From Escherichia coli (GTDB taxonomy: Bacteria > Pseudomonadota > Gammaproteobacteria > Enterobacterales > Enterobacteriaceae), in the NCBI RefSeq assembly GCF_044647545.1, contig NZ_CP172818.1: DNA of 64,000 nucleotides. The stretch is one strand, 5' to 3'. Shown here one piece after another: positions 33,349 through 48,351 of this stretch. The position numbers and the translations under genes were made by a program. Positions within the stretch are counted from its first letter, which is position 1. The number at the start of each line of letters is the position of its first letter. Under the pieces are notes generated by a model. That model was not told where the DNA came from. It saw only the letters and a program-made list of their open reading frames with translations, and searched no databases.

Positions 33349-33380
33349 CAAGGCGCTGCATCGACAGCGCCTTTTCTTTA
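33349..33380 (+). terminator. Rho-independent terminator of metG
   Basis: AAGGCGCTG-CATCGAC-AGCGCCTT hairpin followed by TTCTTTA. Confidence 0.7.
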
Positions 33381-33480
33381 TAAATTCCTAAAGTTGTTTT
33401 CTTGCGATTTTGTCTCTCTCTAACCCGCATAAATACTGGTAGCATCAGCATTCAACTGGATAAAATTACAGGGATGCAGA

Positions 33481-36400
33481 ATGAAACACTTTATCTATCA
33501 GGACGAAAAATCACATAAATTCTGGGCGGTGGAGCAGCAGGGAAACGAGTTGCATATCTGTTGGGGAAAAGTTGGCACCAAAGGGCAAAACCAGGTAAAA
33601 AGTTTTGCGGATGCTGCGGCGGCGGAAAAAGCGGAGCTGAAGCTGATTGCGGAGAAGGTGAAGAAGGGATATGTGGAGCAAGCGAAGGATAATTCTTTGC
33701 AACCTTCCCAAACGGTAACGGACTCTCTCAAGGTAGCGGACTTATCCACCATTATTCAGGAACAACCCTCTTTCGTAGCAGAAACCCGTGCGGCTGACAA
33801 AAATACAGACGTTATTTTACCGTGGCTGGCAAAAGATATTGCTGTCGTTTTTCCGCTTGAAGTCGTACCCACCACCTTAAGCCATCGCCGCTTTCCCGGA
33901 GATCCTGTTACACCTGTAGATAAATTAACCCAGTTACGTCGCTTAGCCTGTGGCGTGTCGCAACGGGATAACAAAACAGCTACATTTGACTTCAGCGCCT
34001 GTACTTTAGAGTGGCAAAACTTCATCGCTCAGGCGATCGATCTGATTAACAGCCCGAAAACGACAAAATTACCATCACCGGTAATGGCTGTACTCGCGGC
34101 ACTTGAACTGCACTGTACGAGATATAAAGAGCGTGAGGATGTTATGGATCAGATTATTCAGGAAGGCGGTCTGGAATATGCTACTGATGTAATAATACAT
34201 CTTCAACAAATATCTATTGAATGGGATTATGTCAACAATAATATTGTTTTCCTGTCGTCTGGCATTTCACCTGATTACTTGCAGCAATATTCCAGCTTTG
34301 AATTACGCCTACGTAAACATTTATCACTGGCGGAAGAGTCTCTCTGGCAAAAATGTGCACAAAAACTTATTGCCGCAGTTCCACATATTCCAGAATGGCG
34401 GCAACCATTAATTGCTTTGTTATTACCCGAAAAACCAGAAATTGCACATGAAATTGCCCAGCGTCTACTGGGGCAAAAGAAATTACCCTCGCTTGAGTGG
34501 CTAAAAATAGTGGCGACTGATGAGCACATTCTTGCCTCATTAGAAAAATATCACGAGCCATATGCCATTTTTGATGATTACTATTGTGGTGCGATATGGT
34601 CAGCCACCGTATTACAGGAGCAAGGTGTTGCAGCCCTGCCCCGATTTGCACCCTATGTCGCAAGTGACTACTGCGCCGATGTGTTGAGTCATATCAATCA
34701 TCCGTTCGCATTAACACTGCTTATACGTGTAGCCGGGCATACTAAACGCTGTCACGATCGAATGACGAAAGCCTGCGCTGCGTTCCCACACGCAGCACTG
34801 GCAGCACTGGCGGAACTTCTAGTGCAAAAAGAAGAGAATAGTTGGCGCATTATGCTAATGACGATGCTTATCTCGCAACCTACACTAGCAGAACAGGTCA
34901 TTCCCTGGCTTTCGACACCCGCAGTTGCAGTGCTGAAATCATGCCAGCAACAACTGAAACAGCCCTCAAACCATGCCAGTGCCGATCTACTGCCGGCCAT
35001 AGTAGTCTCCCCACCATGGCTTTCGAAAAAGAAAAAATCGCCGATTCCGGTGCTTGATTTAGCACCGCTCAACCTCGAATCCATATGCACAATAACCGAC
35101 ACAGAAGCTAAAGAGTTTCAAACTCATTGGGACTGGGAACCGCATAAGCCAGGTGAAGGTGCTAAAGATTTCCTTTACTCGCTGGGGTATCGCCGCTGGG
35201 ATTTTGACACATATAAATATATCGGCGCTTCTGACTCGGCAATTGACGCATGGGAACGTGAGGACTTCGCTACACTCATCCAAATGTTTAAAGCCCACCA
35301 TGCACCGTATCAGGGGGAGTGGCATCTCAACTCACTTCCCTTTTTACCTATGCAAAAAGCGATTAAACTATGGGAATTTCTCAGCAAAGAGCCGCATACC
35401 GCGGTAAAACCTGTCATGCTTTATTTGCGACTGGCAGGTATGAGTGGTTTTCTACACTCGTTTTCACGCTACCCTCAAGAAGGTTTTGCGGTTGCTAATT
35501 ATTTTGCCGCAACGGAACTGGCTCCTGCCGTCGCCCGCGCCTTTAACAAACTCAAAACTCTACGACAAGACGCCCGCACCTGGCTGCTGAAATATCCGGA
35601 ACATGCCATTACCGGCCTGTTGCCTGCGGCACTCGGCAAAGCCGGTGAATCCCAGGATAACGCCCGTGCCGCTTTACGTATGTTGATTGAAAATGGTTAT
35701 CCGTCATTACTGCAAGAAATCGCCCAGCGTTATAACCAGCCGGAAGTAACCGATGCGGTGAACGCTCTACTTGCGCTCGATCCCTTAGATAATCACCCGA
35801 CTAAAATCCCGACACTTCCGGCCTTTTATCAGCCATCGCTCTGGACGCGCCCGGTATTAAAAGCAAACGCCCAATCACTGCCAGATAGCGCCCTCTTCCA
35901 CCTCGGTGAAATGCTCCGCTTCCCTCAGGAAGATACGCTGTATCCGGGGTTATTACAGGTGAAAGACGCCTGTACTGCCGACTCACTGGCTGAGTTTGCC
36001 TGGGATCTGTTTACCGCCTGGCAGACCGCTGGCGTGCCGTCGAAAGAGAGCTGGGCGTTCACTGCATTAGGTGTTCTTGGCAACGGTGACACCGCCCGCA
36101 AACTGACGCCATTAATCCGCGCCTGGCCTGGCGAATCTCAGCATAAACGTGCCACCGTTGGGTTGGATATTCTCGCTGCTATCGGCAGCGATATCGCCCT
36201 GATGCAGCTTAACGGCATCGCCCAGAAACTGAAATTCAAAGCCTTACAGGAGCGGGCGAAAGAAAAAATTGCCGACATTGCCGAAAGTCGCGAACTCACA
36301 GTGGCAGAACTTGAAGATCGGTTAGCACCGGATCTCGGTCTGGATGATAACGGTTCGCTGCTGCTGGATTTCGGGCCACGGCAGTTCACCGTCAGCTTTG

Positions 36401-37269
36401 ATGAAACCTTAAAACCGTTTGTGCGTGATGCTTCCGGCAGCCGCCTGAAAGACTTGCCTAAACCGAACAAAAGCGATGATGAAACCCAAGCGAACGATGC
36501 AGTTAACCGCTACAAACTGTTGAAAAAAGATGCGCGTACCGTTGCCGCCCAGCAGGTAGCAAGGCTGGAATCCGCCATGTGCCTACGCCGCCACTGGTCG
36601 CCGGAAAACTTCCAGCTATTCCTGGTTGAGCATCCGCTGGTTCGCCACTTAACCCGCCGTCTGATTTGGGGCGTTTATAGCACCGAAAACGAGCTACTGG
36701 CCTGTTTCCGGGTGGCAGAAGATAACAGCTACAGCACCGCTGACGATGATCTTTTCACCCTGCCGGAAGGCGATATCTCTATTGGTATTCCTCACGTTCT
36801 GGAAATATCACCGACGGATGCCGCCGCCTTTGGTCAGCTTTTTGCCGACTACGAACTTTTACCGCCGTTCCGTCAGCTCGACCGCAACAGTTATGCCCTG
36901 ACTGAAGTCGAACGCAACGCCAGCGAACTAACCCGCTGGGCAGGCAGAAAATGCCCGAGCGGTCGGGTTATGGGGCTGTCGAATAAAGGCTGGGTGCGTG
37001 GTGAACCGCAGGACGGTGGCTGGATCGGCTGGATGATCAAACCTCTGGGCCGCTGGTCATTAATCATGGAAATCGATGAAGGATTTGCAGTTGGTATGTC
37101 GCCAGCCGAACTCAGTGCCGAGCAACTCTTAAGCAAGCTGTGGCTATGGGAAGGCAAAGCAGAAAGCTATGGCTGGGGGAGTCATTCAACACAGGAAGCG
37201 CAGTTCTCCGCACTCGATGACATCACCGCCAGCGAGTTGATTAACGATATTGAAGCCCTGTTTGAATAA
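33481..37269 (+). CDS. molR: Giant WGR-domain + DUF4132 protein MolR (intact form of the K-12 molR/yehG-yehH pseudogene)
   Basis: 1262 aa single ORF; N-terminal WGR-like segment (HKFWAVEQQGNELHICWGKVGTKGQ); remainder collinear with yehI. Confidence 0.85.
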   Translation: MKHFIYQDEKSHKFWAVEQQGNELHICWGKVGTKGQNQVKSFADAAAAEKAELKLIAEKVKKGYVEQAKDNSLQPSQTVTDSLKVADLSTIIQEQPSFVAETRAADKNTDVILPWLAKDIAVVFPLEVVPTTLSHRRFPGDPVTPVDKLTQLRRLACGVSQRDNKTATFDFSACTLEWQNFIAQAIDLINSPKTTKLPSPVMAVLAALELHCTRYKEREDVMDQIIQEGGLEYATDVIIHLQQISIEWDYVNNNIVFLSSGISPDYLQQYSSFELRLRKHLSLAEESLWQKCAQKLIAAVPHIPEWRQPLIALLLPEKPEIAHEIAQRLLGQKKLPSLEWLKIVATDEHILASLEKYHEPYAIFDDYYCGAIWSATVLQEQGVAALPRFAPYVASDYCADVLSHINHPFALTLLIRVAGHTKRCHDRMTKACAAFPHAALAALAELLVQKEENSWRIMLMTMLISQPTLAEQVIPWLSTPAVAVLKSCQQQLKQPSNHASADLLPAIVVSPPWLSKKKKSPIPVLDLAPLNLESICTITDTEAKEFQTHWDWEPHKPGEGAKDFLYSLGYRRWDFDTYKYIGASDSAIDAWEREDFATLIQMFKAHHAPYQGEWHLNSLPFLPMQKAIKLWEFLSKEPHTAVKPVMLYLRLAGMSGFLHSFSRYPQEGFAVANYFAATELAPAVARAFNKLKTLRQDARTWLLKYPEHAITGLLPAALGKAGESQDNARAALRMLIENGYPSLLQEIAQRYNQPEVTDAVNALLALDPLDNHPTKIPTLPAFYQPSLWTRPVLKANAQSLPDSALFHLGEMLRFPQEDTLYPGLLQVKDACTADSLAEFAWDLFTAWQTAGVPSKESWAFTALGVLGNGDTARKLTPLIRAWPGESQHKRATVGLDILAAIGSDIALMQLNGIAQKLKFKALQERAKEKIADIAESRELTVAELEDRLAPDLGLDDNGSLLLDFGPRQFTVSFDETLKPFVRDASGSRLKDLPKPNKSDDETQANDAVNRYKLLKKDARTVAAQQVARLESAMCLRRHWSPENFQLFLVEHPLVRHLTRRLIWGVYSTENELLACFRVAEDNSYSTADDDLFTLPEGDISIGIPHVLEISPTDAAAFGQLFADYELLPPFRQLDRNSYALTEVERNASELTRWAGRKCPSGRVMGLSNKGWVRGEPQDGGWIGWMIKPLGRWSLIMEIDEGFAVGMSPAELSAEQLLSKLWLWEGKAESYGWGSHSTQEAQFSALDDITASELINDIEALFE

Positions 37270-37278
37270 GGAAAGAAC

Positions 37279-40200
37279 ATGGACAAGGAATTACCGTGGC
37301 TGGCGGATAACGCCCAACTGGAACTGAAATATAAAAAAGGCAAAACACCACTCAGCCATCGCAATTGGCCGGGCGAACCGGTGCCTGTTATCACTGAAAA
37401 CCTCATCCAGACACTGGGTGATAAATTGCTACACATTGCTGAGAAGAAAAAAAACATTGTCTGGCGTTATGAAAATTTTTCACTGGAATGGCAGTCCGCC
37501 ATCACGCAGGCCATCAACTTGATCGGCGAGCACAAACCCTCAATTCCGGCCCGGACAATGGCGGCGCTAGCCTGTATCGCGCAAAATGATAGCCAACAGT
37601 TACTCGACGAAATCGTCCAACAAGAGGGACTGGAATATGCGACTGAAGTGGTGATTGCACGCCAGTTTATTGTACGGTGTTATGAGAGTGATCCTCTGGT
37701 AGTAACATTGCAGTATCAGAAGGAGGACTATGGCTATGGCTATGGCTATGGTTATCGCTCAGAAACCTATAACGAATTCGATCTCCGACTGCGTAAGCAT
37801 CTCTCTCTGGCAGAGGAAAGCTGCTGGCAGCGTTGCGCCGACAAACTCATTGCCGCACTGCCAGGACTACCCCAAGTTCGCCGTCCTTTTATTGCACTCA
37901 TCCTCCCGGAAAAACCAGAAATCGCCAATGAGTTGGTAGGCCTTGAATGCCCGTGGACTCATTTTCATTCTAAGGAGTGGTTAAAAGTTGTTGCTACTGA
38001 CCACAGGGCAGTGGGAAAACTCGAACGCTACTGGAGCCAGGATATATTTAGCGATCGCGAAGCCAGCTACATGTCGCATGAAAACCACTTCGGCTACGCG
38101 GCCTGCGCCGCCCTTTTGCGCGAACAAGGAATTGCAGCCGTTCCACGCCTCGCGATGTATGCCCATAAAGAAGATTGCGGTAGCCTGCTGGTAAAAATTA
38201 ACCATCCGCAGGTCATCCGCACCCTGCTGTTAGTTGCTGATAAAAACAAACCCAGCCTGCAACGTGTGGCTAAATACAGTAAAAACTTCCCCCATGCGAC
38301 GCTTGCCGCACTGGCAGAGCTTCTGGCGTTAAAAGAACCGCCTGCACGCCCTGGTTATCCAATCATCGAAGACAAAAAGCTGCCTGCACAGCAAAAAGCT
38401 CGAGATGAATACTGGCGTACGCTGTTACAAACGCTGATGGCATCGCAGCCACAACTGGCAGAAGAGGTGATGCCGTGGTTAAGTACTCAAGCCCAGGCAG
38501 TGCTGGATAGTTATTTATCGGCACCGCCCAAAACGGTTATTGATAGCACCGATAACATCCAAATGCCTGAAATCCTCGTTTCACCACCGTGGCGTAGTAA
38601 GAAAAAAATGACAGTTCCACGTCTTGATTTGGCACCGTTCGAATTAACGCCGCAAGTTTACTGGCAACCAGGCGAACGAGAGAGGCTTGCCGCCACTGAG
38701 TCTGCCCGTTATTTCAGCACGGAATCTCTTGCGGAACGCATGGAACAAAAAAGTGGACGAGTTGTATTACAGGAGCTGGGTTTTGGAGATGATGTATGGC
38801 TGTTTTTGAATTATATACTCCCCGGAAAACTGGATGCTGCACGCAATTCACTCATTGTTCAGTGGCATTACTACCCAGGGCGGGTTGAAGAGATCATGAA
38901 TGGCTGGAGCTCCCCGGAAGCTCAATTAGCAGAACAGGCGCTTCGCAACGGTCACGTAGAAGTGTTAATTAACATATGGGAAAATGACAGCTACTCACGC
39001 TATCGTCGGGAAAAGAGTATCTGGAACCTGTATTTATTGGCGCAGTTGCCGCGTGAGATGGCTTTGACTTTCTGGCTACGTATCAATGAGAAAAAGCATC
39101 TGTCTGCGGGAGAGGACTATTTTCTCAGTATCTTCGGATTGGATGCTCTACCAGGTCTGCTGTTGGCTTTTTCACATCGTCCAAAAGAAACATTTCCATT
39201 AATTTTAAATTTCGGCGCAACAGAACTGGCCCTGCCCGTTGCCCGCGTCTGGCGACGTTTCGCGGCGCAGCGTGATCTGGCTCGCCAGTGGATTTTACAT
39301 TGGTCGGAACATACAGCTACTGCACTTATCCCTCTTGTCTTCACCAAATCCAGCGATAATAGCGAAGCTGCATTACTTGCCCTGCGTTTACTTTACGAAC
39401 AGGGACATGGCGAGTTACTGCAAACCGTGGCAAACCGCTGGCAGCGTACAGATGTATGGCCTGCCCTGGAGCAATTACTTAAACAGAGTCCAATAGAGAT
39501 TTACCCGACACGCATTCCAAAAGCCCCTGATTTCTGGCAGCCGGCAATGTGGTCCAGACCGAGACTTATCACGAATAATCAACCTGTTACTGATGATGCT
39601 CTGGAAATTATCGGCGAAATGCTGCGCTTTACCCAGGGCGGACGTTTTTATTGTGGGCTGGAACAACTGAAAACGTTCTGCCAGCCACAAACGCTGGCCG
39701 CTTTTGCCTGGGATCTCTTTACCGCGTGGCAACAAGTTGGCGCCCCCGCAAAAGACAACTGGGCATTTCTGGCGTTAAGTCTCTTCGGTGACGAAAGCAC
39801 GGCTCGGGATCTGACAACACAGATCCTCGCCTGGCCACAGGAAGGCAAATCTGCCCGTGCCGTCAGTGGCCTGAACATACTTACCCTGATGAATAATGAT
39901 ATGGCGCTGATACAGCTGCATCATATATCGCAACGGGCGAAATCCCGTCCCTTACGTGATAACGCGGCGGAATTTCTTCAGGTGGTCGCAGAAAATCGTG
40001 GACTAAGCCAGGAAGAGTTAGCGGACAGATTAGTCCCAACACTGGGCCTGGATGATCCGCAGGCGTTGATATTTGATTTTGGTCCCCGGCAGTTTACCGT
40101 TCGCTTCGATGAAAACCTCAACCCGGTTATCTTTGATCAGCAAAACGTTCGCCAGAAAAGCATTCCCCGGTTGCGCGCCGATGACGATCAGCTGAAAGCG

Positions 40201-40923
40201 CCCGAGGCTCTGGCCCGACTTAAAGGGCTAAAAAAAGATGCCACTCAGGTGAGCAAAAACCTGCTCCCGCGTCTTGAAACAGCCCTACGCACCACCCGAC
40301 GCTGGTCGCTGGCAGATTTTCATTCTCTGTTTGTTAATCATCCCTTTACCCGTCTGGTTACCCAGCGATTAATATGGGCGGTTTATCCAGCAAATGAACC
40401 GCGTCGTTTACTCAACGCCTTTCGTGTGGCCGCAGAGGGGGAATTCTGCAACGCACAAGATGAGCCAATTGACCTGCCTGCCGATGCCCTGATTGGCATT
40501 GCCCACCCGTTAGAAATGACAGCAGAAATGCGCAGTGAATTTGCACAGCTTTTTGCCGATTACGAAATTATGCCGCCTTTTCGCCAGTTGACGCGGCGCA
40601 CAGTGCTGCTCACGCCTGACGAGTCAGCCAGTAATAGTTTGAATCGCTGGGAAGGTAAATCTGCTACCGTTGGGCAACTTATGGGAATGCGATACAAAGG
40701 CTGGGAGTCAGGCTATGAGAACGCATTTGTCTATGACCTGGGCGAGTACCGGCTGGTCCTTAAGTTTTCATCCGGTTTTAACCACTACAATGTTGATAGC
40801 AAAGCGCTAATGAGCTTCCGTTCTCTTCATGTATACCGTGACAATAAATCTGTCACTTTTGCCGAACTTGATGTGTTTGATTTGAGTGAAGCGTTAAGCG
40901 CACCCGACGTCATTTTCCATTAA
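37279..40923 (+). CDS. yehI: Giant DUF4132 protein YehI, tandem paralog of MolR lacking the WGR domain
   Basis: 1214 aa; long collinear similarity to MolR (DLRLRKHLSLAEES.WQ.CA.KLIAA.P ... FPHA.LAALAELL ... FGPRQFTV.FDE); internal GYGYGYGY repeat. Confidence 0.85.
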   Translation: MDKELPWLADNAQLELKYKKGKTPLSHRNWPGEPVPVITENLIQTLGDKLLHIAEKKKNIVWRYENFSLEWQSAITQAINLIGEHKPSIPARTMAALACIAQNDSQQLLDEIVQQEGLEYATEVVIARQFIVRCYESDPLVVTLQYQKEDYGYGYGYGYRSETYNEFDLRLRKHLSLAEESCWQRCADKLIAALPGLPQVRRPFIALILPEKPEIANELVGLECPWTHFHSKEWLKVVATDHRAVGKLERYWSQDIFSDREASYMSHENHFGYAACAALLREQGIAAVPRLAMYAHKEDCGSLLVKINHPQVIRTLLLVADKNKPSLQRVAKYSKNFPHATLAALAELLALKEPPARPGYPIIEDKKLPAQQKARDEYWRTLLQTLMASQPQLAEEVMPWLSTQAQAVLDSYLSAPPKTVIDSTDNIQMPEILVSPPWRSKKKMTVPRLDLAPFELTPQVYWQPGERERLAATESARYFSTESLAERMEQKSGRVVLQELGFGDDVWLFLNYILPGKLDAARNSLIVQWHYYPGRVEEIMNGWSSPEAQLAEQALRNGHVEVLINIWENDSYSRYRREKSIWNLYLLAQLPREMALTFWLRINEKKHLSAGEDYFLSIFGLDALPGLLLAFSHRPKETFPLILNFGATELALPVARVWRRFAAQRDLARQWILHWSEHTATALIPLVFTKSSDNSEAALLALRLLYEQGHGELLQTVANRWQRTDVWPALEQLLKQSPIEIYPTRIPKAPDFWQPAMWSRPRLITNNQPVTDDALEIIGEMLRFTQGGRFYCGLEQLKTFCQPQTLAAFAWDLFTAWQQVGAPAKDNWAFLALSLFGDESTARDLTTQILAWPQEGKSARAVSGLNILTLMNNDMALIQLHHISQRAKSRPLRDNAAEFLQVVAENRGLSQEELADRLVPTLGLDDPQALIFDFGPRQFTVRFDENLNPVIFDQQNVRQKSIPRLRADDDQLKAPEALARLKGLKKDATQVSKNLLPRLETALRTTRRWSLADFHSLFVNHPFTRLVTQRLIWAVYPANEPRRLLNAFRVAAEGEFCNAQDEPIDLPADALIGIAHPLEMTAEMRSEFAQLFADYEIMPPFRQLTRRTVLLTPDESASNSLNRWEGKSATVGQLMGMRYKGWESGYENAFVYDLGEYRLVLKFSSGFNHYNVDSKALMSFRSLHVYRDNKSVTFAELDVFDLSEALSAPDVIFH

Positions 40924-40983: not shown

Positions 40984-41304
40984 ATGATCGTGCAAAAAGA
41001 GCTGGTCACTATTTACGATTATGAGGCCCCTGTACCTGAAGAGCCGTTTTCCTTCAGACTTGAGATCCATAAATGCTCTGAATTATTTACAGGTTCCATC
41101 TACCGGCTGGAGCGATTCCGGCTACATCCAACATTTCATCAACGTGATCGAGAGGATATCGACCCGCTAATAAATGATGCGTTGATTTATATAAGAGATG
41201 AGTTTATTGATGAGCGAAAATTACGGGGCGAATCACCAGAAACGGTAATAGCCATTTTTAATCGTGAACTACAGAATATATTCAACCAAGAAATAGAAAA
41301 ATAG
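40984..41304 (+). CDS. yehK: Small uncharacterized protein YehK
   Basis: 106 aa; no recognisable domain; AT-rich codon usage unlike neighbours; hairpin terminator immediately downstream (~41309-41336). Confidence 0.7.
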   Translation: MIVQKELVTIYDYEAPVPEEPFSFRLEIHKCSELFTGSIYRLERFRLHPTFHQRDREDIDPLINDALIYIRDEFIDERKLRGESPETVIAIFNRELQNIFNQEIEK

Positions 41305-41469
41305 CTTTATTAAAGGGGGAAACGGTATTCCCCTTTAGATGTGTTTTATTTTCCCGTTACTCAAAAAAATAAATAAACCGAAAAAAAGCCACTAATAGCT
41401 CCAGTACGGAAATAAGCAGGGTTAATTTTTTGTCAGTGTGTCCATCCCTTCTCTTTATAAAGGAGGGCA

Positions 41470-41560
41470 ACACCACTTTTTACCTACCCCCCCCTTTATT
41501 TTTTTTATTCGAACCATTTCCCCCCCGAAGGCCCCCCCCCCCCCCCCCCAACCCTTGAAA
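41470..41560. other. Anomalous low-complexity stretch with poly-C (17 nt), poly-T and C-rich runs; probable sequencing/assembly artefact
   Basis: Direct reading: ...tacctacccccccctttattttttttattcgaaccatttcccccccgaaggcccccccccccccccccaaccc...; same character as the 3856-4550 anomaly. Confidence 0.55.
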
Positions 41561-41704
41561 TGGGTTCGATCCGGCGCAACGTCCCAACAGTCAGGATTAT
41601 AAATCTCATTATCTTAATTGCAACGGGGTCCACCGATGGTTATAATTCGTTCGTTGGAACACGATGTTGCACAGGCCGTGGTGTTAGGCCTGAAAGTAGT
41701 AAAT

Positions 41705-41846: not shown

Positions 41847-42935
41847 ATGTCACCGCAGAATAATCATCTGCAGCGTCCGCCTGTCGCTGTGTTATACGCC
41901 GATGAACTGGCAAAATTAAAACAAAATGATCACGCACCTTGCCCGCCCGGTTGGCAGTTAAGTTTGCCTGCGGCCCGTGCTTTTATCCTTGGCGATAGCG
42001 CGCAAAATATTAGCCGTAAAGTGGTGATTAGTCCCTCCGCTGTCGAACGCATGTTAGTCACTCTTGCCACCGGGCGCGGTTTGATGTTGGTGGGGGAACC
42101 TGGCACCGCAAAATCTCTCCTGTCTGAATTACTGGCAACCGCTATTAGCGGCGATGCCGGGTTAACCATCCAGGGCGGCGCATCTACCACTGAAGATCAA
42201 ATCAAGTACGGCTGGAACTACGCTCTGCTTATCAACCATGGTCCGTCAACGGAAGCACTGGTCCCTGCCCCGCTTTACCAGGGAATGCGCGACGGCAAAA
42301 TCGTCCGTTTTGAAGAGATAACGCGTACACCGCTGGAAGTACAAGACTGTCTGTTAGGTATGCTTTCTGACAGGGTAATGACGGTGCCGGAACTCACTGG
42401 TGAAGCCAGTCAGCTCTATGCGCGAGAAGGCTTTAATATTATTGCCACTGCCAATACCCGCGATCGCGGCGTCAATGAAATGAGCGCTGCGCTAAAGCGT
42501 CGATTCGATTTTGAAACGGTCTTTCCGATTATGGATTTCGCCCAGGAACTGGAACTGGTCGCCAGTGCTTCGGCGCGTTTATTGGCCCATAGTGGCATTC
42601 CGCATAAAGTGCCTGACGCGGTACTGGAGTTACTGGTACGCACCTTCCGCGATCTGCGTGCCAACGGCGAAAAGAAAACGTCAATGGATACACTGACAGC
42701 GATTATGTCCACCGCTGAAGCCGTGAACGTAGCCCACGCTGTGGGTGTCCGCGCCTGGTTTTTAGCGAATCGCGCAGGTGAGCCAGCCGATCTGGTGGAC
42801 TGTATTGCCGGAACCATCGTTAAAGATAACGAAGAAGATCGCGCTCGTCTGCGCCGTTACTTCGAACAGCGTGTCGCCACACATAAAGAAGCTCACTGGC
42901 AGGCTTATTATCAAGCCCGCCACCGCCTGCCGTGA
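41847..42935 (+). CDS. yehL: MoxR-family AAA+ ATPase YehL
   Basis: 362 aa from MSPQNNHLQRPP; Walker A LVGEPGTAKS; Walker B region IVRFEEITRTPLEVQDCLLGML; MoxR-like C-terminal helical region. Confidence 0.88.
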   Translation: MSPQNNHLQRPPVAVLYADELAKLKQNDHAPCPPGWQLSLPAARAFILGDSAQNISRKVVISPSAVERMLVTLATGRGLMLVGEPGTAKSLLSELLATAISGDAGLTIQGGASTTEDQIKYGWNYALLINHGPSTEALVPAPLYQGMRDGKIVRFEEITRTPLEVQDCLLGMLSDRVMTVPELTGEASQLYAREGFNIIATANTRDRGVNEMSAALKRRFDFETVFPIMDFAQELELVASASARLLAHSGIPHKVPDAVLELLVRTFRDLRANGEKKTSMDTLTAIMSTAEAVNVAHAVGVRAWFLANRAGEPADLVDCIAGTIVKDNEEDRARLRRYFEQRVATHKEAHWQAYYQARHRLP

Positions 42936-42945
42936 GGAAAGATGC

Positions 42946-45225
42946 ATGAGCGAGCCGTTAATTGTCGGCATCCGGCATCATAGCCCGGCCTGCGCCCGGC
43001 TGGTGAAATCGTTAATCGAAAGCCAGCGGCCACGATACGTGTTGATTGAAGGCCCGGCTGATTATAATGACCGGGTAGACGAACTGTTTTTAGCCCACCA
43101 GCTTCCGGTAGCTATTTACAGTTATTGCCAGTATCAGGACGGTGCAGCCCCCGGGCGTGGTGCCTGGACGCCATTTGCTGAATTTTCGCCGGAGTGGCAG
43201 GCGCTACAAGCCGCTCGTCGTATTCAGGCACAAACTTACTTCATCGATTTGCCTTGCTGGGCGCAGAGTGAAGAAGAGGACGATTCGCCTGATACGCATG
43301 AGGAAAGCCAGACCTTGCTGCTGCATGCCACCCGCATGGATAACAGCGACACCCTGTGGGATCACTTGTTCGAAGATGAAAGCCAGCAAACTGCATTACC
43401 CTCTGCACTGGCGCACTATTTTGCCCAACTGCGGGGCGACTCCCCCGGAGATGCTCTCAATCGTCAGCGCGAAGCCTTTATGGCCCGCTGGATTGCATGG
43501 GCGATGCAGCAAAATAATGGCGACGTGTTAGTTGTCTGCGGTGGCTGGCACGCTCCGGCACTGGCAAAAATGTGGCGCGAATGCCCGCAAGAAATTAACA
43601 AGCCAGAATTGCCGTCGCTGGCAGATGCCGTTACAGGTTGCTATCTCACGCCATACAGTGAAAAGCGCCTTGATGTGCTGTCAGGATACCTTTCAGGAAT
43701 GCCTGCCCCGGTCTGGCAAAACTGGTGCTGGCGGTGGGGCTTGCAGCAGGCAGGTGAACAACTACTGAAAACGGTTCTTACCCGTTTGCGCCAGCACCAC
43801 TTGCCTGCTTCAACAGCGGATATGGCTGCCGCTCATCTGCATGCGATGGCACTGGCACAGTTGCGCGGTCATACACTACCGTTACGCACTGACTGGCTGG
43901 ATGCTATAGCCGGCTCGCTGATCAAAGAAGCCCTGAACGCGCCGTTGCCGTGGAGCTATCGCGGCGTTATTCATCCCGATACCGATCCGATTCTGCTAAC
44001 GTTGATAGACACATTAGCGGGTGACGGATTCGGTAAACTTGCCCCCTCGACGCCACAGCCACCTCTGCCAAAAGATGTCACCTGCGAACTGGAACGTACC
44101 GGAATCTCTTTTCCGGCGGAGCTTACCTTAAATCGCTTTACCCCCGATGGACTGGCGCAAAGTCAGGTGTTACATCGGCTGGTAATACTGGAGATCCCAG
44201 GGGTTGTGCGCCAGCAGGGAAGTACACTGACACTTGCAGGCAACGGTGAAGAACGCTGGAAATTAACCCGCCCGCTTAGCCAACATGCGGCATTAATTGA
44301 GGCCGCCTGCTTTGGTGCCACACTCCAGGAAGCCGCACGCCATAAATTAGAAGCCGATATGCTGGACGCGGGTGGAATCGGCAGTATCACCACATGTCTT
44401 AGCCAGGCGGCGTTAGCGGGTCTGGCGTCCTTCAGTCAACAATTACTGGAGCAACTTACATTATTAATCGCCCAGGAAAATCAGTTTGCCGAAATGGGCC
44501 AGGCGCTGGAAGTGCTATACGCCTTATGGCGGCTGGATGAAATTAGCGGTATGCAAGGCGCGCAGATATTACAGACGACGTTATGCGCAGCTATCGATCG
44601 CACACTCTGGCTGTGTGAATCCAACGGCAGACCGGATGAAAAGGAGTTTCACGCTCACCTGCATAGCTGGCAAGCGCTTTGCCATATCCTGCGCGATCTA
44701 CATAGCGGCGTTAATTTACCCGGCGTTTCGCTTTCTGCGGCGGTAGCCTTACTGGAGCGCCGCAGTCAGGCGATTCATGCCCCGGCGCTGGATCGCGGCG
44801 CGGCTCTTGGCGCACTAATGCGTCTGGAACATCCCAACGCCAGTGCCGAAGCGGCGCTGACGATGCTGGCGCAGTTATCCCCGGCACAATCCGGCGAGGC
44901 GCTGCACGGTTTGCTGGCATTAGCCCGTCATCAACTGGCCTGTCAGCCGGCATTTATCGCCGGTTTCAGTAGTCATTTAAATCAACTGAGTGACGACGAT
45001 TTTATTAACGCCCTGCCCGATTTACGCGCGGCGATGGCCTGGCTACCACCACGAGAACGCGGGACGCTGGCGCATCAGGTGCTTGAGCATTACCAGCTCG
45101 CACAGCTTCCCATTTCAGCGCTGCAAATGCCGTTGCATTGTCCACCGCAAGCCATTGCACATCATCAACAACTCGAACAGCAGGCACTGGCATCGCTGCA
45201 ACACTGGGGAGTTTTCCATGTCTGA
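42946..45225 (+). CDS. yehM: Large uncharacterized protein YehM
   Basis: 759 aa from MSEPLIVGIRHHSPA (ATG at 42946, 10 bp after yehL stop); no domain I can assign; stop overlaps yehP start. Confidence 0.8.
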   Translation: MSEPLIVGIRHHSPACARLVKSLIESQRPRYVLIEGPADYNDRVDELFLAHQLPVAIYSYCQYQDGAAPGRGAWTPFAEFSPEWQALQAARRIQAQTYFIDLPCWAQSEEEDDSPDTHEESQTLLLHATRMDNSDTLWDHLFEDESQQTALPSALAHYFAQLRGDSPGDALNRQREAFMARWIAWAMQQNNGDVLVVCGGWHAPALAKMWRECPQEINKPELPSLADAVTGCYLTPYSEKRLDVLSGYLSGMPAPVWQNWCWRWGLQQAGEQLLKTVLTRLRQHHLPASTADMAAAHLHAMALAQLRGHTLPLRTDWLDAIAGSLIKEALNAPLPWSYRGVIHPDTDPILLTLIDTLAGDGFGKLAPSTPQPPLPKDVTCELERTGISFPAELTLNRFTPDGLAQSQVLHRLVILEIPGVVRQQGSTLTLAGNGEERWKLTRPLSQHAALIEAACFGATLQEAARHKLEADMLDAGGIGSITTCLSQAALAGLASFSQQLLEQLTLLIAQENQFAEMGQALEVLYALWRLDEISGMQGAQILQTTLCAAIDRTLWLCESNGRPDEKEFHAHLHSWQALCHILRDLHSGVNLPGVSLSAAVALLERRSQAIHAPALDRGAALGALMRLEHPNASAEAALTMLAQLSPAQSGEALHGLLALARHQLACQPAFIAGFSSHLNQLSDDDFINALPDLRAAMAWLPPRERGTLAHQVLEHYQLAQLPISALQMPLHCPPQAIAHHQQLEQQALASLQHWGVFHV

Positions 45226-46354
45226 ACTGAACGATCTTCTGACCACCCGTGAGCTACAACGCTGGCGATTAATTCTTGGCGAAGCGGCAGAAACGACGCT
45301 TTGTGGGCTGGATGACAACGCCCGGCAGATAGACCACGCGCTGGAGTGGCTGTACGGGCGCGATCCTGAACGGCTCCAGCGTGGTGAACGCTCCGGTGGA
45401 TTAGGTGGCTCAAATCTCACCACCCCTGAGTGGATCAACAGTATTCACACGCTGTTTCCGCAACAGGTGATTGAACGGCTGGAAAGCGATGCCGTACTGC
45501 GCTACGGCATTGAAGATGTGGTGACAAATCTCGACGTGCTGGAACGTATGCAGCCTTCGGAAAGCCTGCTACGCGCCGTTTTGCACACCAAACATCTGAT
45601 GAATCCCGAAGTACTGGCTGCCGCCCGCCGGATAGTACGCCAGGTTGTGGAAGAAATTATGGCGCGACTGGCAAAGGAAGTTCGTCAGGCTTTTTCTGGT
45701 GTCCGCGATCGCCGTCGCCGCTCATTTATTCCACTGGCGCGAAACTTTGATTTCAAAAGTACTCTGCGCGCCAACCTGCAACACTGGCACCCGCAACACG
45801 GCAAGTTGTATATCGAATCCCCCCGCTTTAACAGCCGCATTAAACGCCAAAGCGAACAATGGCAACTGGTCTTACTGGTTGATCAAAGCGGATCAATGGT
45901 GGACTCGGTGATCCACTCAGCGGTGATGGCGGCCTGTTTATGGCAGTTACCCGGTATTCGTACCCATCTGGTGGCGTTTGACACCAGCGTGGTTGATCTC
46001 ACGGCAGACGTTGCCGATCCGGTAGAGTTATTAATGAAAGTGCAATTAGGCGGCGGAACCAATATCGCCAGTGCCATGGAATATGGTCGGCAACTTATTG
46101 AACAACCAGCGAAAAGCGTCATCATCCTCGTGAGCGATTTTTACGAAGGGGGTTCATCATCATTACTGACGCATCAGGTGAAAAAGTGTGTCCAGAGCGG
46201 CATCAAAGTGCTGGGACTGGCGGCGCTCGATAGCACCGCAACACCTTGCTATGACCACGATACGGCCCAGGCGCTAGTTAATGTCGGCGCACAAATAGCC
46301 GCCATGACACCGGGCGAGCTGGCGGCCTGGCTTGCGGAGAATCTTCAGTCATGA
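45218..46354 (+). CDS. yehP: von Willebrand factor A (VWA) domain protein YehP
   Basis: 378 aa; C-terminal VWA with MIDAS DxSxS (LVLLVDQSGSM), further ...GGGTN... and ILVSDFYEGG; start ATG overlaps yehM stop (ATGTCTGA). Confidence 0.88.
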   Translation: MSELNDLLTTRELQRWRLILGEAAETTLCGLDDNARQIDHALEWLYGRDPERLQRGERSGGLGGSNLTTPEWINSIHTLFPQQVIERLESDAVLRYGIEDVVTNLDVLERMQPSESLLRAVLHTKHLMNPEVLAAARRIVRQVVEEIMARLAKEVRQAFSGVRDRRRRSFIPLARNFDFKSTLRANLQHWHPQHGKLYIESPRFNSRIKRQSEQWQLVLLVDQSGSMVDSVIHSAVMAACLWQLPGIRTHLVAFDTSVVDLTADVADPVELLMKVQLGGGTNIASAMEYGRQLIEQPAKSVIILVSDFYEGGSSSLLTHQVKKCVQSGIKVLGLAALDSTATPCYDHDTAQALVNVGAQIAAMTPGELAAWLAENLQS

Positions 46355-48351
46355 ATTCACTACGTCCGGAATTATTAGAACTGACGCCGCAGGCCCTGAC
46401 GGCGTTAAGCAATGCCGGTTTTGTTAAACGCAGTCTTAAGGAACTGGAAAATGGCAACGTCCCGGAAATCAGCCATAAGAACGGCGCTTTAATCGCCACC
46501 TTCAGTGACGGTGTCCGTACCCAGCTGGCGAACGGTCAGGCACTGAAAGAGGCTCAATGCAGCTGCGGGGCCAGCGGCATGTGCCGCCATCGCGTGATGC
46601 TGGTTTTAAGTTATCAGCGACTTTGCGCCACCACCCAGCCTACGGAAAAAGAAGAAGAGTGGGATCCGGCAATCTGGCTAGAAGAACTGGCTACCCTTCC
46701 CGATGCCACCCGCAAACGCGCGCAGGCGCTGGTCGCTAAAGGCATCACCATTGAGTTGTTCTGTACGCCGGGCGAAATTCCCTCTGCCCGCTTACCGATG
46801 AGCGATGTACGTTTTTATTCCCGCAGCAGCATTCGTTTCGCACGCTGTGATTGTATTGAAGGAACACTTTGCGAACATGTTGTGCTGGCAGTACAGGCCT
46901 TTGTCCAGGCCAAAGCGCAGCAAGCAGAATTTAACCATTTAATCTGGCAGATGCGCAGCGAACACGTCACATCATCTGACGATCCGTTTGCCAGCGAAGA
47001 GGGCAACGCGTGTCGTCAATATGTTCAGCAACTAAGCCAGGCATTATGGCTGAGCGGCATCAGCCAGCCGCTTATTCATTACGAGGCCGCTTTCAGCCGC
47101 GCGCAGCAAGCGGCGGAACGCTGCAACTGGCGCTGGGTAAGTGAATCACTACGACAGCTACGGGCAAGCGTTGATGCCTTCCACGCCCGCGCCAGTCACT
47201 ATCATGCCGGAGAATGCTTACGTCAGCTTGCGGCATTAAACAGTCGATTAAATTGCGCACAAGAGATGGCGCGGCGCGACAGTGTTGGTGAAGTTCCTCC
47301 TGTGCCGTGGCGCACGGTCGTTGGCGCTGGCATTGCCGGAGAAGCAAAGCTTGATCATCTGCGGCTGGTGTCTTTAGGTATGCGTTGCTGGCAGGATATT
47401 GAGCAGTATGGTTTACGCATCTGGTTCACCGATCCCGACACCGGCAGTATTTTGCATCTTTCGCGTAGTTGGCCGAGAAGCGAACAGGAAAATTCACCGG
47501 CAGCGACGCGTCGGCTGTTTAGTTTTCTGGCTGGCGCACTGGCAGGTGGGCAAATTGTTTCACAAGCAGCAAAACGCAGTGCCGATGGCGAACTGCTATT
47601 AGCTACCCGCAACCGCTTGAGTAGTGTTGTGCCGCTGTCGCCAGACGCCTGGCAAATGTTGAGCGCGCCATTGCGCCAGCCGGGCATTGTGGCTTTGCGG
47701 GAATATTTACGCCAGCGTCCCCCCGCCTGCATACGGCCTCTTAATCAGGTGGATAACTTATTTATTCTGCCAGTCGCTGAGTGTATTTCACTCGGTTGGG
47801 ATAGCAGCCGCCAGACACTGGATGCGCAGGTAATCAGCGGCGAAGGTGAAGATAACGTGCTGACATTATCCCTACCAGCCTCTGCCTGTTCGCCCTTTGC
47901 TGTTGAACGCATGGCGGCGCTTTTGCAACAAACAGACGACCCCGTGAGTCTGGTTTCTGGCTTTGTCAGCTTTGTAGAGGGGCAATTGACACTGGAACCA
48001 CGGGTGATGATGACAAAAAACCGCGCCTGGGCGCTGGACGCAGAAACTGCGCCTGTGGCACCGCTACCTTCTGCCAGCGTTTTGCCTGTGCCGTCTACCG
48101 CTCATCAGTTGCTGATGCGCTGCCAGGCGTTACTTATTCAACTGCTCCATAACGGCTGGCGCTATCAGGAACAGAGTGCTATTGGTCAGGCAGAGTTGCT
48201 GGCGAATGACCTCACCGCGGTGGGTTTTTATCGGCTGGCACATGTGTTGGCACAATTTCGTAATACAGAAAGCGAGGCACGGGTAGAAGCAATGAATAAC
48301 GGTGTTTTGATTTGCGAACAATTATTCCCCATGCTTCAGCAACAAGGATGA
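46351..48351 (+). CDS. yehQ: SWIM zinc-finger domain protein YehQ
   Basis: 666 aa as ORF; two CxC...CxH SWIM-like motifs (CSCGASGMCRHRVM and CDCIEGTLCEHVVLAV); start overlaps yehP stop (ATGA). Confidence 0.85.
   Translation: MNSLRPELLELTPQALTALSNAGFVKRSLKELENGNVPEISHKNGALIATFSDGVRTQLANGQALKEAQCSCGASGMCRHRVMLVLSYQRLCATTQPTEKEEEWDPAIWLEELATLPDATRKRAQALVAKGITIELFCTPGEIPSARLPMSDVRFYSRSSIRFARCDCIEGTLCEHVVLAVQAFVQAKAQQAEFNHLIWQMRSEHVTSSDDPFASEEGNACRQYVQQLSQALWLSGISQPLIHYEAAFSRAQQAAERCNWRWVSESLRQLRASVDAFHARASHYHAGECLRQLAALNSRLNCAQEMARRDSVGEVPPVPWRTVVGAGIAGEAKLDHLRLVSLGMRCWQDIEQYGLRIWFTDPDTGSILHLSRSWPRSEQENSPAATRRLFSFLAGALAGGQIVSQAAKRSADGELLLATRNRLSSVVPLSPDAWQMLSAPLRQPGIVALREYLRQRPPACIRPLNQVDNLFILPVAECISLGWDSSRQTLDAQVISGEGEDNVLTLSLPASACSPFAVERMAALLQQTDDPVSLVSGFVSFVEGQLTLEPRVMMTKNRAWALDAETAPVAPLPSASVLPVPSTAHQLLMRCQALLIQLLHNGWRYQEQSAIGQAELLANDLTAVGFYRLAHVLAQFRNTESEARVEAMNNGVLICEQLFPMLQQQG

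What the first reader, a model, noticed from the sequence alone, without database searches (positions are those of the whole stretch)
33481..40923. molR and yehI are tandem giant paralogs; molR is intact here and only it carries the N-terminal WGR domain
The two proteins are collinear over ~1100 aa with conserved blocks (LRLRKHLSLAEES, FPHA.LAALAELL, SPPW.SKKK, FGPRQFTV.FDE, LFADYE..PPFRQL). MolR has an extra ~130-aa N-terminus with a WGR-like motif. K-12 carries molR as a fragmented pseudogene as I recall, so this strain retains a possibly functional ancestral copy. Duplication with domain loss suggests subfunctionalisation.
Basis: partly seen in the sequence, partly recalled or inferred. Interest (0 to 1): 0.6.

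Follow-up and report, generated by a model that had tools for sequence, protein, structure and literature searches.

The report
SOS-controlled array of giant WGR/DUF4132 paralogs
The two giant neighbouring genes are real, intact paralogs (molR with a PARP-like WGR head, yehI without), a fact already in the databases; they belong to a variable tandem gene array behind a DNA-damage (LexA) operator and sit next to a conserved AAA+ ATPase/VWA gene set whose function is still unknown.

Summary
Window 33481-37269 is an intact 1262-aa MolR and 37279-40923 a 1214-aa YehI. They share 38% identity over 1183 columns. Only MolR has a WGR domain (aa 7-69); both have DUF4132. The extra N-terminus is 109 aa, not ~130. 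K-12 molR has two lesions: TTA>TGA at codon 275 and a +G frameshift at codon ~947.

The interpretation needs correcting on three points:
- Intact molR is the usual state in the strains sampled, not a special retention.
- The locus is a copy-number-variable array, not a simple pair. E. coli has at least three WGR-bearing classes plus YehI; 1630 of 5426 genomes carry an extra copy.
- WGR is ancestral, and the WGR-less YehI type also occurs in Klebsiella.

Further findings:
- A LexA box (33456-33471) precedes the first copy in all nine E. coli loci examined.
- The WGR head and the C-terminal 560 aa are conserved; the helical middle is hypervariable.
- In 49 of 69 loci across several phyla a DUF4132 gene lies within 10 kb of YehL (MoxR AAA+), YehM, YehP (VWA) and YehQ (SWIM) orthologs.

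Most likely these are DNA-tethered scaffold or adaptor subunits of that machine; this step is inferred. The finding as stated is already known. The array picture is moderately interesting.

The parts
33350..33373 (+). metG intrinsic terminator-like hairpin followed by a T-run. It separates metG from the molR transcription unit.
   Evidence: 9-bp stem, 6 GC pairs, T-rich tail; sequence
33454..33473 (+). LexA (SOS) box AACTGGATAAAATTACAGGG. The CTG-N10-CAG core is at 33456-33471 and ends 9 nt before the molR ATG.
   Evidence: Sequence. The box is found before the first array copy in all 9 E. coli loci examined, including one with an otherwise diverged upstream region. No box lies between copies. 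It is also present in K. oxytoca and Escherichia sp. E1V33. molR is listed among LexA-regulated genes with a known SOS box in PMC6590174 Table 1.
33481..37269 (+). molR (class 'MolR-B'), intact, 1262 aa
   Evidence: It is 100% identical to the annotated CDS WP_022645865.1 of E. coli FDAARGOS_497.
33499..33687 (+). WGR domain (aa 7-69), motif W28-G29-K30. It is followed by a low-confidence linker (aa 71-103).
33790..35580 (+). Variable helical-repeat (HEAT-like) region, aa ~104-700. Between paralog classes it is only 10-50% identical.
   Evidence: Within-species pN 0.11-0.33 and pS 0.36-0.68. Paralog mosaic. AlphaRep/HEAT profile matches. Helical secondary structure.
35065..35505 (+). Hypervariable cassette of molR (aa ~529-675). 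It is ~45-48% nucleotide identical to K-12, so megablast loses it.
   Evidence: 88-89% coverage in 2 pieces; pN 0.30-0.33 at codons 551-650
35578..37266 (+). Conserved C-terminal module (aa ~700-1262): helical repeats followed by a mixed alpha/beta part. DUF4132 lies at 36436-36993.
34303..34305 (+). Codon L275, the site of the K-12 TTA>TGA nonsense mutation. It is intact here.
   Evidence: The exact K-12 60-mer occurs in 706 of 5426 genomes.
36319..36321 (+). Codon R947 in the LEDRLAPD motif, the site of the K-12 +G frameshift. It is intact here.
   Evidence: The exact K-12 61-mer occurs in 352 genomes, and the rows listed are mostly K-12 laboratory derivatives.
37279..40923 (+). yehI, 1214 aa. 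This is the WGR-less paralog and the last member of the array. DUF4132 lies at 40150-40704.
   Evidence: Present in 5330 of 5426 genomes, single copy. The variable region is codons 401-650.
40984..41304 (+). yehK (106 aa). It matches no family in PADLOC or NCBIfam and is absent from the Klebsiella locus, so it is probably not part of the conserved system.
41847..42935 (+). yehL, a MoxR-type AAA+ ATPase (YehL subfamily)
   Evidence: Annotation. Orthologs carry Pfam AAA_5. The nearest solved relatives are midasin AAA domains. Named as a MoxR subfamily in PMC3893208.
42946..45225 (+). yehM, DUF5682 protein (759 aa)
   Evidence: Pfam 6.4e-99; no relative in the PDB
45218..46354 (+). yehP, VWA-domain protein (378 aa)
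   Evidence: Annotation. Orthologs carry Pfam VWA_CoxE and VWA_2.
46351..48351 (+). yehQ, SWIM zinc-finger protein. It is intact here (666 aa); K-12 has a TAG stop at codon 615.
   Evidence: Pfam SWIM 9.7e-4

Best explanation
molR and yehI are two members of a tandem, copy-number-variable family of ~1200-aa proteins. These proteins form the fast-evolving part of a widely conserved gene module: [WGR-DUF4132]n followed by YehL (MoxR AAA+ ATPase), YehM (DUF5682), YehP (VWA) and YehQ (SWIM).

Each array protein has three parts:
- a conserved PARP-type WGR head (missing in YehI);
- a hypervariable HEAT-like helical middle;
- a conserved C-terminal module that contains DUF4132.

In Escherichia and Klebsiella the whole array appears to be read from one promoter that carries a LexA operator, so it would be switched on by DNA damage.

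Proposed mechanism (inferred, not shown): the WGR head tethers the protein to nicked or broken DNA, as it does in PARPs. The variable solenoid binds a partner or ligand. The conserved C-terminal module docks onto the YehL/YehP ATPase-VWA motor, which remodels or assembles the complex in the way midasin, CbbQ-CbbO or RavA-ViaA act on their clients. YehI would be a head-less, non-DNA-tethered variant of the same subunit.
For: Shown by tool results:
- Paralogy and domain content.
- WGR fold matching PARP1 and PARP3 and conservation of the W-G-[RK] motif.
- No enzyme-like fold in the confident model of the C-terminal half (pLDDT 95). HEAT-like repeats in the middle.
- Synteny. 49 of 69 DUF4132 loci have YehL/M/P orthologs within 10 kb, 42 have all three, and where all are detected the order is L, M, P, Q. 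The loci come from Enterobacterales, Burkholderiales, Xanthomonadales, Myxococcota, Acidobacteriota, Actinomycetota and Alphaproteobacteria. Pfam-labelled examples are L015, L017, L014 and L020. Stop and start are 2 nt apart in L015.
- The core genes are much better conserved (YehL 62-75%, YehP 54-67% identity) than the DUF4132 proteins (30-41%).
- The LexA box is conserved before the first copy in 9 of 9 E. coli loci and in K. oxytoca. Gaps between copies are 9-12 nt.
- Literature: molR is listed as LexA-regulated (PMC6590174). A DUF4132 gene and a WGR gene are induced by DdrO depletion in Deinococcus (PMC8533742).
- Purifying selection on the WGR and C-terminal parts (pN/pS 0.03-0.19) against a variable middle (0.3-0.6).
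- Correlated decay. K-12 has molR lesions plus a yehQ stop. O157:H7 has two MolR pseudogenes plus a yehM stop. BL21 and this window have everything intact.
Against: - No experiment or interaction prediction links the DUF4132 proteins physically to YehLMPQ. Synteny is the only evidence.
- In E. coli the array and yehLMPQ are separated by yehK, a type I toxin-antitoxin locus and terminator-like hairpins, so co-regulation is not assured.
- 20 of 69 loci show no YehLMP nearby. Some are short contigs or extra Massilia arrays; L011 and L013 are standalone.
- The LexA box is confined to Escherichia and Klebsiella.
- MolR has K in place of the R of the W-G-R motif.
- DNA binding by bacterial WGR domains is assumed from PARPs, not demonstrated.
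- The correlated decay rests on four lineages only.
Confidence: 0.5

Rival explanations
1. The array is the variable sensor set of a conflict system (anti-phage, anti-plasmid or inter-bacterial). The diversifying middle regions recognise foreign molecules or DNA ends, and the YehLMPQ motor executes the response.
For: - Strong within-species protein divergence: MolR-B alleles are 75-95% identical and YehI alleles 81-99%, against dN 0.001-0.004 for MetG.
- Copy-number variation and repeated lineage-specific expansions.
- Frequent pseudogenisation, IS hits and deletion.
- Some neighbours are conflict genes: AbiEii in L015, and Rhs/PAAR toxins with SMI1 and SUFU-type genes in L011.
- A zor-orz type I toxin-antitoxin locus lies inside the E. 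coli cluster.
Against: - No PADLOC match for any of the seven cluster proteins.
- No recognisable toxin, nuclease or protease effector.
- The locus sits in the chromosomal backbone at a fixed site (metG...btsSR), is present in 5419 of 5426 E. coli genomes and is syntenic in Klebsiella.
- It is absent from 50,697 phage records and rare on plasmids.
- No sliding window reached pN/pS > 1.
- No statistical test of defence-island enrichment was run.
Confidence: 0.2
2. MolR and YehI act in SOS-linked DNA repair or damage tolerance on their own (WGR as a break sensor, solenoid as a scaffold). The proximity to yehLMPQ is historical rather than functional in E. coli.
For: The LexA box and the literature listing. 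The PARP-like WGR fold. The Deinococcus DdrO-regulon link. In E. coli, yehLMPQ lies behind its own promoter-like and terminator-like sites.
Against: The order DUF4132 then L, M, P, Q is kept across several phyla, often with overlapping or abutting genes. That is hard to explain without a functional link. YehI lacks the WGR yet is the better-retained paralog. The LexA box is absent outside Escherichia and Klebsiella.
Confidence: 0.15
3. The genes are slowly decaying remnants without a current function. The variability reflects relaxed constraint.
For: Pseudogenes in K-12 and O157:H7, truncated remnants in L018/L019, IS insertions and one deletion. Overall dN/dS of 0.14-0.33 is well above that of the neighbouring genes.
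Against: Open frames of 3.6-3.8 kb persist in most strains sampled and in distant phyla. The C-terminal 560 codons and the WGR show pN/pS of 0.03-0.19. The family has 8861 50%-identity clusters, with invariant residues across them.
Confidence: 0.05
4. MolR is a transcription factor that regulates molybdate metabolism. This is the historical name and is still seen as 'MolR family transcriptional regulator'.
For: Only the inherited name. I did not read the 1990 genetics paper; it is not held in the library.
Against: There is no helix-turn-helix or other classical DNA-binding regulator domain; Pfam finds only WGR and DUF4132. The gene is a two-lesion pseudogene in K-12. The K-12 background of the original genetics is my recollection. 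Conserved neighbours are a MoxR/VWA/SWIM set, and no molybdenum genes appeared in any Pfam-labelled context.
Confidence: 0.03

Closest known systems
PARP-family WGR domain (PARP1/2/3; Pfam PF05406)
   Different: No ADP-ribosyl-transferase or helical regulatory domain follows it. Instead there is a ~1100-aa helical solenoid plus DUF4132. The motif has K30 in place of R. DNA binding is untested.
MoxR AAA+ / VWA two-component remodelling systems (RavA-ViaA, CbbQ-CbbO, NorQ-NorD, CoxD-CoxE; eukaryotic midasin/Rea1)
   Same: The adjacent yehL is the type member of the YehL subfamily of MoxR ATPases (PMC3893208). It is paired with a VWA protein (YehP; orthologs match VWA_CoxE). Its nearest solved relatives are midasin AAA domains. 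As in those systems, the ATPase-VWA pair is conserved while the accompanying genes define the client.
   Different: The client or adaptor here would be a giant WGR/DUF4132 protein that comes in tandem arrays. Two further large unknown proteins (DUF5682, SWIM) are always present. No substrate or phenotype is known for the YehL subfamily.
LexA (SOS) regulon genes of E. coli
   Same: A CTG-N10-CAG operator overlaps the ribosome-binding region. molR is listed with a known SOS box (PMC6590174, after Fernandez de Henestrosa 2000 and Courcelle 2001).
   Different: Unlike the core SOS genes, this one is a pseudogene in K-12, is hypervariable and varies in copy number. The operator is restricted to Escherichia and Klebsiella.
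2ra8_A, Bacteroides fragilis Q64V53 (uncharacterised structural-genomics protein)
   Different: It is a 362-aa protein without DUF4132, and its function is also unknown.

Membership tests
WGR domain (PF05406) | Significant match to the Pfam HMM | tested here: met
   MolR 7-69, i-E 5.1e-17, 62 bits. YehI has no match.
WGR domain (PF05406) | WGR fold (antiparallel sheet plus helix) as in the PARPs | tested here: met
WGR domain (PF05406) | Central W-G-R motif | tested here: met
   The window has W28-G29-K30, a conservative R>K change. The family consensus RWGRIGT aligns to PARP3 RWGRVGE.
WGR domain (PF05406) | Binding to DNA nicks or breaks | not testable with these tools
   This needs EMSA or fluorescence anisotropy with the purified domain.
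DUF4132 (PF13569) | Significant match to the Pfam HMM | tested here: met
   MolR 986-1171, 4.8e-50. YehI 958-1142, 5.9e-47.
YehL-subfamily MoxR AAA+/VWA module | Adjacent MoxR-type AAA_5 ATPase gene and VWA gene | tested here: met
   yehL and yehP lie downstream. Orthologs are labelled AAA_5 and VWA_CoxE/VWA_2. The YehL subfamily is named in PMC3893208.
YehL-subfamily MoxR AAA+/VWA module | Conserved linkage of the DUF4132 gene to the module across taxa | tested here: met
   49 of 69 loci have YehL/M/P within 10 kb and 42 have all three. Where all are detected the order is L, M, P, Q.
YehL-subfamily MoxR AAA+/VWA module | Physical interaction with, or remodelling by, the ATPase-VWA pair | not testable with these tools
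   No complex prediction or experiment was available.
LexA regulon | LexA operator (CTG-N10-CAG, AT-rich centre) in the promoter region | tested here: met
   AACTGGATAAAATTACAGGG at 33454-33473. The strict CTGT-N8-ACAG form has one mismatch. It is conserved in 9 of 9 E. coli loci.
LexA regulon | LexA binding and damage-inducible transcription | not tested
   Only literature listings are available (PMC6590174, PMC11039860, PMC4576408). The primary papers were not readable here.
Known or candidate anti-phage defence systems (PADLOC-DB 2.0) | HMM match of any component | tested here: not met
   0 families for MolR, YehI, YehK, YehL, YehM, YehP and YehQ at E <= 0.01.
PARP enzymes | ADP-ribosyl-transferase catalytic domain following the WGR | tested here: not met
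Transcriptional regulator of molybdate metabolism ('MolR family') | Classical DNA-binding regulator domain and linkage to molybdenum genes | tested here: not met
   Pfam finds only WGR and DUF4132. No molybdenum-related genes appeared in the labelled neighbourhoods.

The most novel reading that the evidence does not exclude
The molR/yehI array is a set of diversifying receptors of a DNA-damage- or foreign-DNA-triggered system of a new kind. The constant WGR head reads DNA ends, the hypervariable solenoids recognise different invaders or lesions, and the constant C-terminal module couples them to a split, midasin-like AAA+/VWA motor (YehLMPQ). On this reading the tandem expansion, allelic hypervariability and recurrent loss are the footprint of an arms race.
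Probability: 0.2. Interest if true: 0.75.

Novelty: already known. Interest (0 to 1): 0.4.

Why it matters
The stated finding is already visible in public annotation: the two paralogs, WGR only in MolR, and the K-12 pseudogene. RefSeq names these proteins 'WGR and DUF4132 domain-containing protein', the Pfam WGR entry (as I recall it) cites E. coli MolR, and molR is a listed LexA-regulon gene.

What is worth keeping is the wider picture. One of the largest uncharacterised gene clusters in the E. coli backbone combines:
- a PARP-type DNA-break-sensing domain;
- an SOS operator;
- hypervariable, copy-number-variable giant proteins;
- a MoxR/VWA/SWIM gene set conserved across several phyla.

K-12, the strain in which most genetics is done, carries lesions in molR and in yehQ. 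This may be one reason no phenotype is on record. In the library searched, only four open-access papers mention DUF4132 and none mentions DUF5682. The data here identify intact reference loci (this strain, BL21(DE3), O104:H4) and give concrete, testable predictions for the function of the YehL MoxR subfamily.

Tried and rejected
I re-ran it on the first 1200 residues.
- The word-indexed homolog search was swamped by near-identical E. coli clusters and gave no distant relatives. The representative-library search was used instead.
- The strict LexA patterns CTGT-N8-ACAG and TACTG(TA)5CAGTA with up to 3 mismatches found nothing in the window. The real box is CTGG-N8-ACAG and was found by reading the sequence.
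- PADLOC gave no hits. NCBIfam gave only a WGR-region hit to a Leptospira family far below its cutoff, plus weak AAA and VWA hits.
- Sequence search of the PDB found nothing for YehM or YehQ.
- The sliding-window Nei-Gojobori analysis found no window with pN/pS > 1. This neither proves nor excludes site-specific positive selection, because pS is near saturation and recombination is evident.
- A LexA-like box was sought upstream of 59 non-E. coli loci. Only Klebsiella oxytoca and Escherichia sp. have a convincing one, so I rejected SOS control as a general property of the family.
- I considered that L015's second, WGR-less DUF4132 gene might be a YehI ortholog. It is closer to MolR (39%) than to YehI (31%), so WGR loss has probably happened more than once.
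- The 1990 molR paper (PMC208707) is not held.
- One representative (P0151) could not be located on a contig.
Full report
**1. The observation**

The window holds two long same-strand ORFs 9 nt apart: 33481-37269 (1262 aa) and 37279-40923 (1214 aa).
- BLASTP aligns MolR 110-1202 with YehI 2-1167 at 38% identity (446/1183, E = 0).
- Pfam finds WGR (aa 7-69, 5.1e-17) and DUF4132 (986-1171, 4.8e-50) in MolR. In YehI it finds only DUF4132 (958-1142, 5.9e-47).
- The MolR-specific N-terminus is 109 residues, not ~130. It consists of the WGR and a linker that the structure model leaves at pLDDT < 50 (aa 71-103).
- The region is E. coli. molR is 100% identical to an annotated CDS of strain FDAARGOS_497.
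- The gene order there is yehABCDE (-), apbC (-), metG, molR, yehI, yehK, yehL, yehM, yehP, yehQ.

**2. K-12**

In the K-12 derivative TG1 the gene is flagged 'frameshifted; internal stop'. Compared with the intact, closely related BL21(DE3) allele it has two lesions, which break it into three pieces:
- TTA>TGA at codon 275, inside the conserved FELRLRKH block. This corresponds to window 34303-34305.
- A single G inserted at nt 2846, in the LEDRLAPD block. This corresponds to window codon R947, 36319-36321.

The exact K-12 60-mer carrying the TGA occurs in 706 of 5426 complete E. coli genomes, including isolates from chickens, cattle and patients. The exact 61-mer carrying the +G occurs in 352 genomes, and the rows listed are mostly K-12 laboratory strains. 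So the nonsense mutation is a natural allele, and the frameshift looks like a later addition in the K-12 lineage.

**3. Intact molR is not unusual**
- BL21(DE3), O104:H4, MS 200-1, MFDS1022581, MZ1211 and GN03204 all have intact copies.
- The protein collection holds many 1262-aa clusters, and several are each seen on 1000 or more contigs.
- What is unusual is the allele. Only 66 records are at least 99% identical to the window's molR, and 5045 fall in the 90-95% band, usually with an ~11% stretch that megablast cannot align.

**4. The locus is a variable array, not a pair**

Several strains carry three tandem giant genes after metG: a 1265-1269-aa copy ('MolR-A'), the window type ('MolR-B') and YehI.
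- MolR-A is 44-45% identical to the window MolR.
- O157:H7 has the three-slot form with both MolR copies inactivated.
- A third WGR-bearing class exists ('MolR-C', 1246 aa, 46% to MolR-B). It sits in four-slot arrays where the MolR-B slot is a truncated remnant.
- MolR-A DNA covers at least 80% of the query in 1630 of 5426 genomes.
- One strain has lost molR through the 5' part of yehL next to an IS1 element. IS3 and IS5 insertions occur in others.
- A resistance transposon sits in this region in an ST131 sublineage (PMC9334617).
- YehI is single-copy and the better retained gene: 5222 of 5426 genomes have at least 80% coverage, against 4008 for MolR-B.

**5. Age and direction of the change**
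- Klebsiella oxytoca has three WGR+DUF4132 genes followed by a WGR-less 1199-aa gene that is 55% identical to YehI. These are directly followed by AAA_5, DUF5682, VWA and SWIM genes and then yehR/S/btsRS homologs.
- So the WGR-less last-in-array paralog appears to predate the Escherichia-Klebsiella split, unless it was transferred between the two.
- WGR is the common state in the family. 111 of the 150 best 50%-identity cluster representatives have it at the N-terminus, one has it internally after a histidine-kinase fusion, and 59 of 69 genomic loci have it.
- 'Domain loss in YehI' is therefore supported. A distant locus (L015) has its own WGR-less second copy that is closer to MolR than to YehI, so the loss has probably happened more than once.

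**6. Anatomy and evolution of the proteins**

| Part | Between paralog classes | Within E. coli |
|---|---|---|
| WGR head (first 50 aa) | 88% identical | pN/pS 0.15 |
| Helical middle (aa ~100-700) | 10-50% identical | pN 0.11-0.33, pS 0.36-0.68 |
| C-terminal module (aa ~840-1140) | 64-88% identical | pN/pS 0.03-0.19 (codons ~700-1262) |

- Within-species variation in MolR-B peaks at codons 551-650, which is window ~35065-35505. That stretch is only ~45-48% nucleotide identical to K-12.
- YehI has its own variable stretch at codons 401-650.
- Overall dN/dS is 0.14-0.33 for molR and yehI, against 0.01-0.05 for metG and yehL. No window exceeded 1.
- Synonymous divergence between paralog classes is lower in the WGR segment (pS 0.32-0.58) than in the C-terminal region (0.58-0.73). 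MolR-A DNA matches other genomes only over its first ~200 nt. Both results suggest partial homogenisation of the 5' ends, but with only 65 codons this is no more than suggestive.

Structure:
- A profile of the family also hits designed alphaRep (HEAT-like) proteins and the PARP3 WGR by sequence.

**7. Regulation**
- The metG terminator-like hairpin (33350-33373) is followed by a LexA box, AACTGGATAAAATTACAGGG (33454-33473). Its CTG-N10-CAG core ends 9 nt before the ATG.
- The box is present before the first array gene in all nine E. coli loci examined, whichever paralog class comes first, and even where the rest of the upstream region has diverged. There is none in the 9-12-nt gaps between copies.
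- The same box at the same distance occurs in K. oxytoca and Escherichia sp. E1V33. It does not occur in Erwinia, Serratia, Burkholderiales or the other phyla sampled.
- Reviews list molR among LexA-regulated genes with a known SOS box (PMC6590174; also PMC11039860 and PMC4576408). I could not read the primary papers.
- In Deinococcus, a DUF4132 gene and a WGR gene are strongly induced when the damage-response repressor DdrO is depleted (PMC8533742).

**8. Genomic association**

A scan of one genome per species returned 69 loci. They come from Enterobacterales, Burkholderiales, Xanthomonadales, Myxococcota, Acidobacteriota, Actinomycetota and Alphaproteobacteria.
- 49 loci contain orthologs of YehL, YehM or YehP within 10 kb, and 42 contain all three. 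Where all are detected the order is L, M, P, Q, usually starting within a few hundred bases of the DUF4132 stop codon.
- 24 loci have more than one DUF4132 core, and Massilia has up to seven hits per locus.
- Pfam-labelled contigs show the same pattern.
- The core genes are far better conserved than the DUF4132 genes: YehL 62-75% and YehP 54-67%, against 30-41%.
- YehL is the name-giving member of one of the seven MoxR AAA+ subfamilies (PMC3893208), and its nearest solved relatives are midasin AAA domains.
- YehM is DUF5682, YehQ has a SWIM zinc finger, and neither has a solved relative.
- Decay is correlated in the few lineages looked at. K-12 has the molR lesions plus a TAG at yehQ codon 615, and that exact 60-mer is in 348 genomes, about the same number as the molR frameshift. 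O157:H7 has two MolR pseudogenes plus a TAG at yehM codon 510. BL21 and the window have everything intact.

**9. What it most likely is**

Shown: molR and yehI belong to a fast-evolving, copy-number-variable family. That family is the variable partner of a conserved MoxR-AAA+/DUF5682/VWA/SWIM gene set. In Escherichia and Klebsiella the array lies behind a LexA operator.

Inferred:
- The WGR head tethers the protein to nicked or broken DNA, as in PARPs.
- The variable solenoid binds a partner.
- The conserved C-terminal module docks onto the ATPase-VWA motor, which remodels the complex.
- YehI is a head-less version of the same subunit.

I put about 0.5 on this package. Most of that rests on the module membership, and much less on the mechanistic steps.

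**10. Rivals**
- A conflict or defence role (about 0.2) fits the hypervariability, copy-number changes, recurrent loss and some neighbouring genes. Against it: no PADLOC match, no recognisable effector, a fixed backbone location in 5419 of 5426 genomes, no phage homologs and rare plasmid carriage.
- An SOS repair role independent of yehLMPQ (about 0.15) is hard to square with the cross-phylum synteny.
- Neutral decay (about 0.05) is contradicted by strong constraint on the WGR and C-terminal parts.
- The historical 'molybdate regulator' label (about 0.03) has no support in domain content or gene context.

**11. Novelty**

The finding as written restates what public annotation already shows, so I rate it 'already known'. 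I found no paper in the searchable library that describes these proteins beyond passing mention: four papers mention DUF4132 and none mentions DUF5682. The added picture is an SOS-fronted, hypervariable, copy-variable array of giant WGR proteins coupled to the uncharacterised YehL MoxR module, with K-12 defective in two components. It gives a moderately interesting and directly testable lead.

Noticed in passing
window 41330-41560 (yehK-yehL intergenic region); compare L001 16850-17107: This stretch differs from the otherwise 99.8-100% identical strain FDAARGOS_497 in a peculiar 'homopolymerised' way. Many bases are turned into A/T runs, there is an 18-C run near 41533-41552, and the stretch is 33 nt shorter. 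In L001 the minus strand encodes a perfect 29-aa ZorO type I toxin (MDTLTQKLTVLIAVLELLVALLRLIDLLK). In the window the same ORF (41357-41445, minus strand) is riddled with changes and loses 1 nt in an A-run. It looks like low-quality base calls or an assembly artefact in the window's source rather than biology.
   Followed up: partly
window 41660-41735 (+): The OrzO-P antitoxin sRNA (Rfam RF02083, 98.9 bits against a gathering score of 60) is present, so a zor-orz type I toxin-antitoxin locus sits between yehK and yehL. K-12 lacks ~240 nt here. PMC2887945 describes the locus in O157:H7 and its absence from MG1655.
   Followed up: yes
window 46351-48351 (yehQ); L090 5126-7126; L092 4385-6664: yehQ is intact here, but K-12 has GAG>TAG at codon 615, and that exact 60-mer is in 348 genomes. 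O157:H7 has CAG>TAG at yehM codon 510. Both lineages also have inactivated molR copies, which suggests the whole cluster decays together.
   Followed up: partly
L010 (strain 50EVAW) 7069-7838; hits H17 and H41: IS elements repeatedly hit the array. An IS1-flanked deletion removes molR through the 5' end of yehL. IS3 and IS5 insertions lie inside MolR copies in other strains. The literature reports a blaCTX-M-15 transposon (TnMB1860) inserted in this region in ST131 sublineage L1a.
   Followed up: no
L003 13492-13808; L008 14465-14781; L007 14465-14770: yehK is flagged frameshifted in two B2-like strains. In MZ1211 the same position is annotated as a 'hypothetical protein' with a different protein accession. 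Klebsiella has no yehK at all. yehK therefore looks like a dispensable Escherichia-specific insert.
   Followed up: no
L014 6883-12213: A metagenomic relative fuses a histidine-kinase module (HisKA/HATPase_c) to the N-terminus of a WGR-DUF4132 protein (1776 aa). It is preceded by a response-regulator gene and followed by YehL and YehM orthologs. This hints that some versions signal through phosphorelay.
   Followed up: no
L011/L012 (Massilia frigida) and L049-L052, L056: Massilia species carry many DUF4132 loci, including tandem arrays with up to seven core hits and no YehLMPQ within 10 kb. One standalone copy lies among Rhs/PAAR toxin genes and SMI1/KNR4- and SUFU-type genes.
   Followed up: no
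L015 390-1870: In one distant locus, an AbiEii-family gene and a small upstream ORF lie 28 nt before the WGR-DUF4132 gene that begins the full DUF4132, L, M, P, Q, DUF4132 cluster.
   Followed up: no
window 28000-29500: G+C drops to 36-40% upstream of the cluster, against ~50-55% elsewhere. By offset from L001 this falls at the yehD/yehE end of the yeh fimbrial operon. I did not examine it.
   Followed up: no
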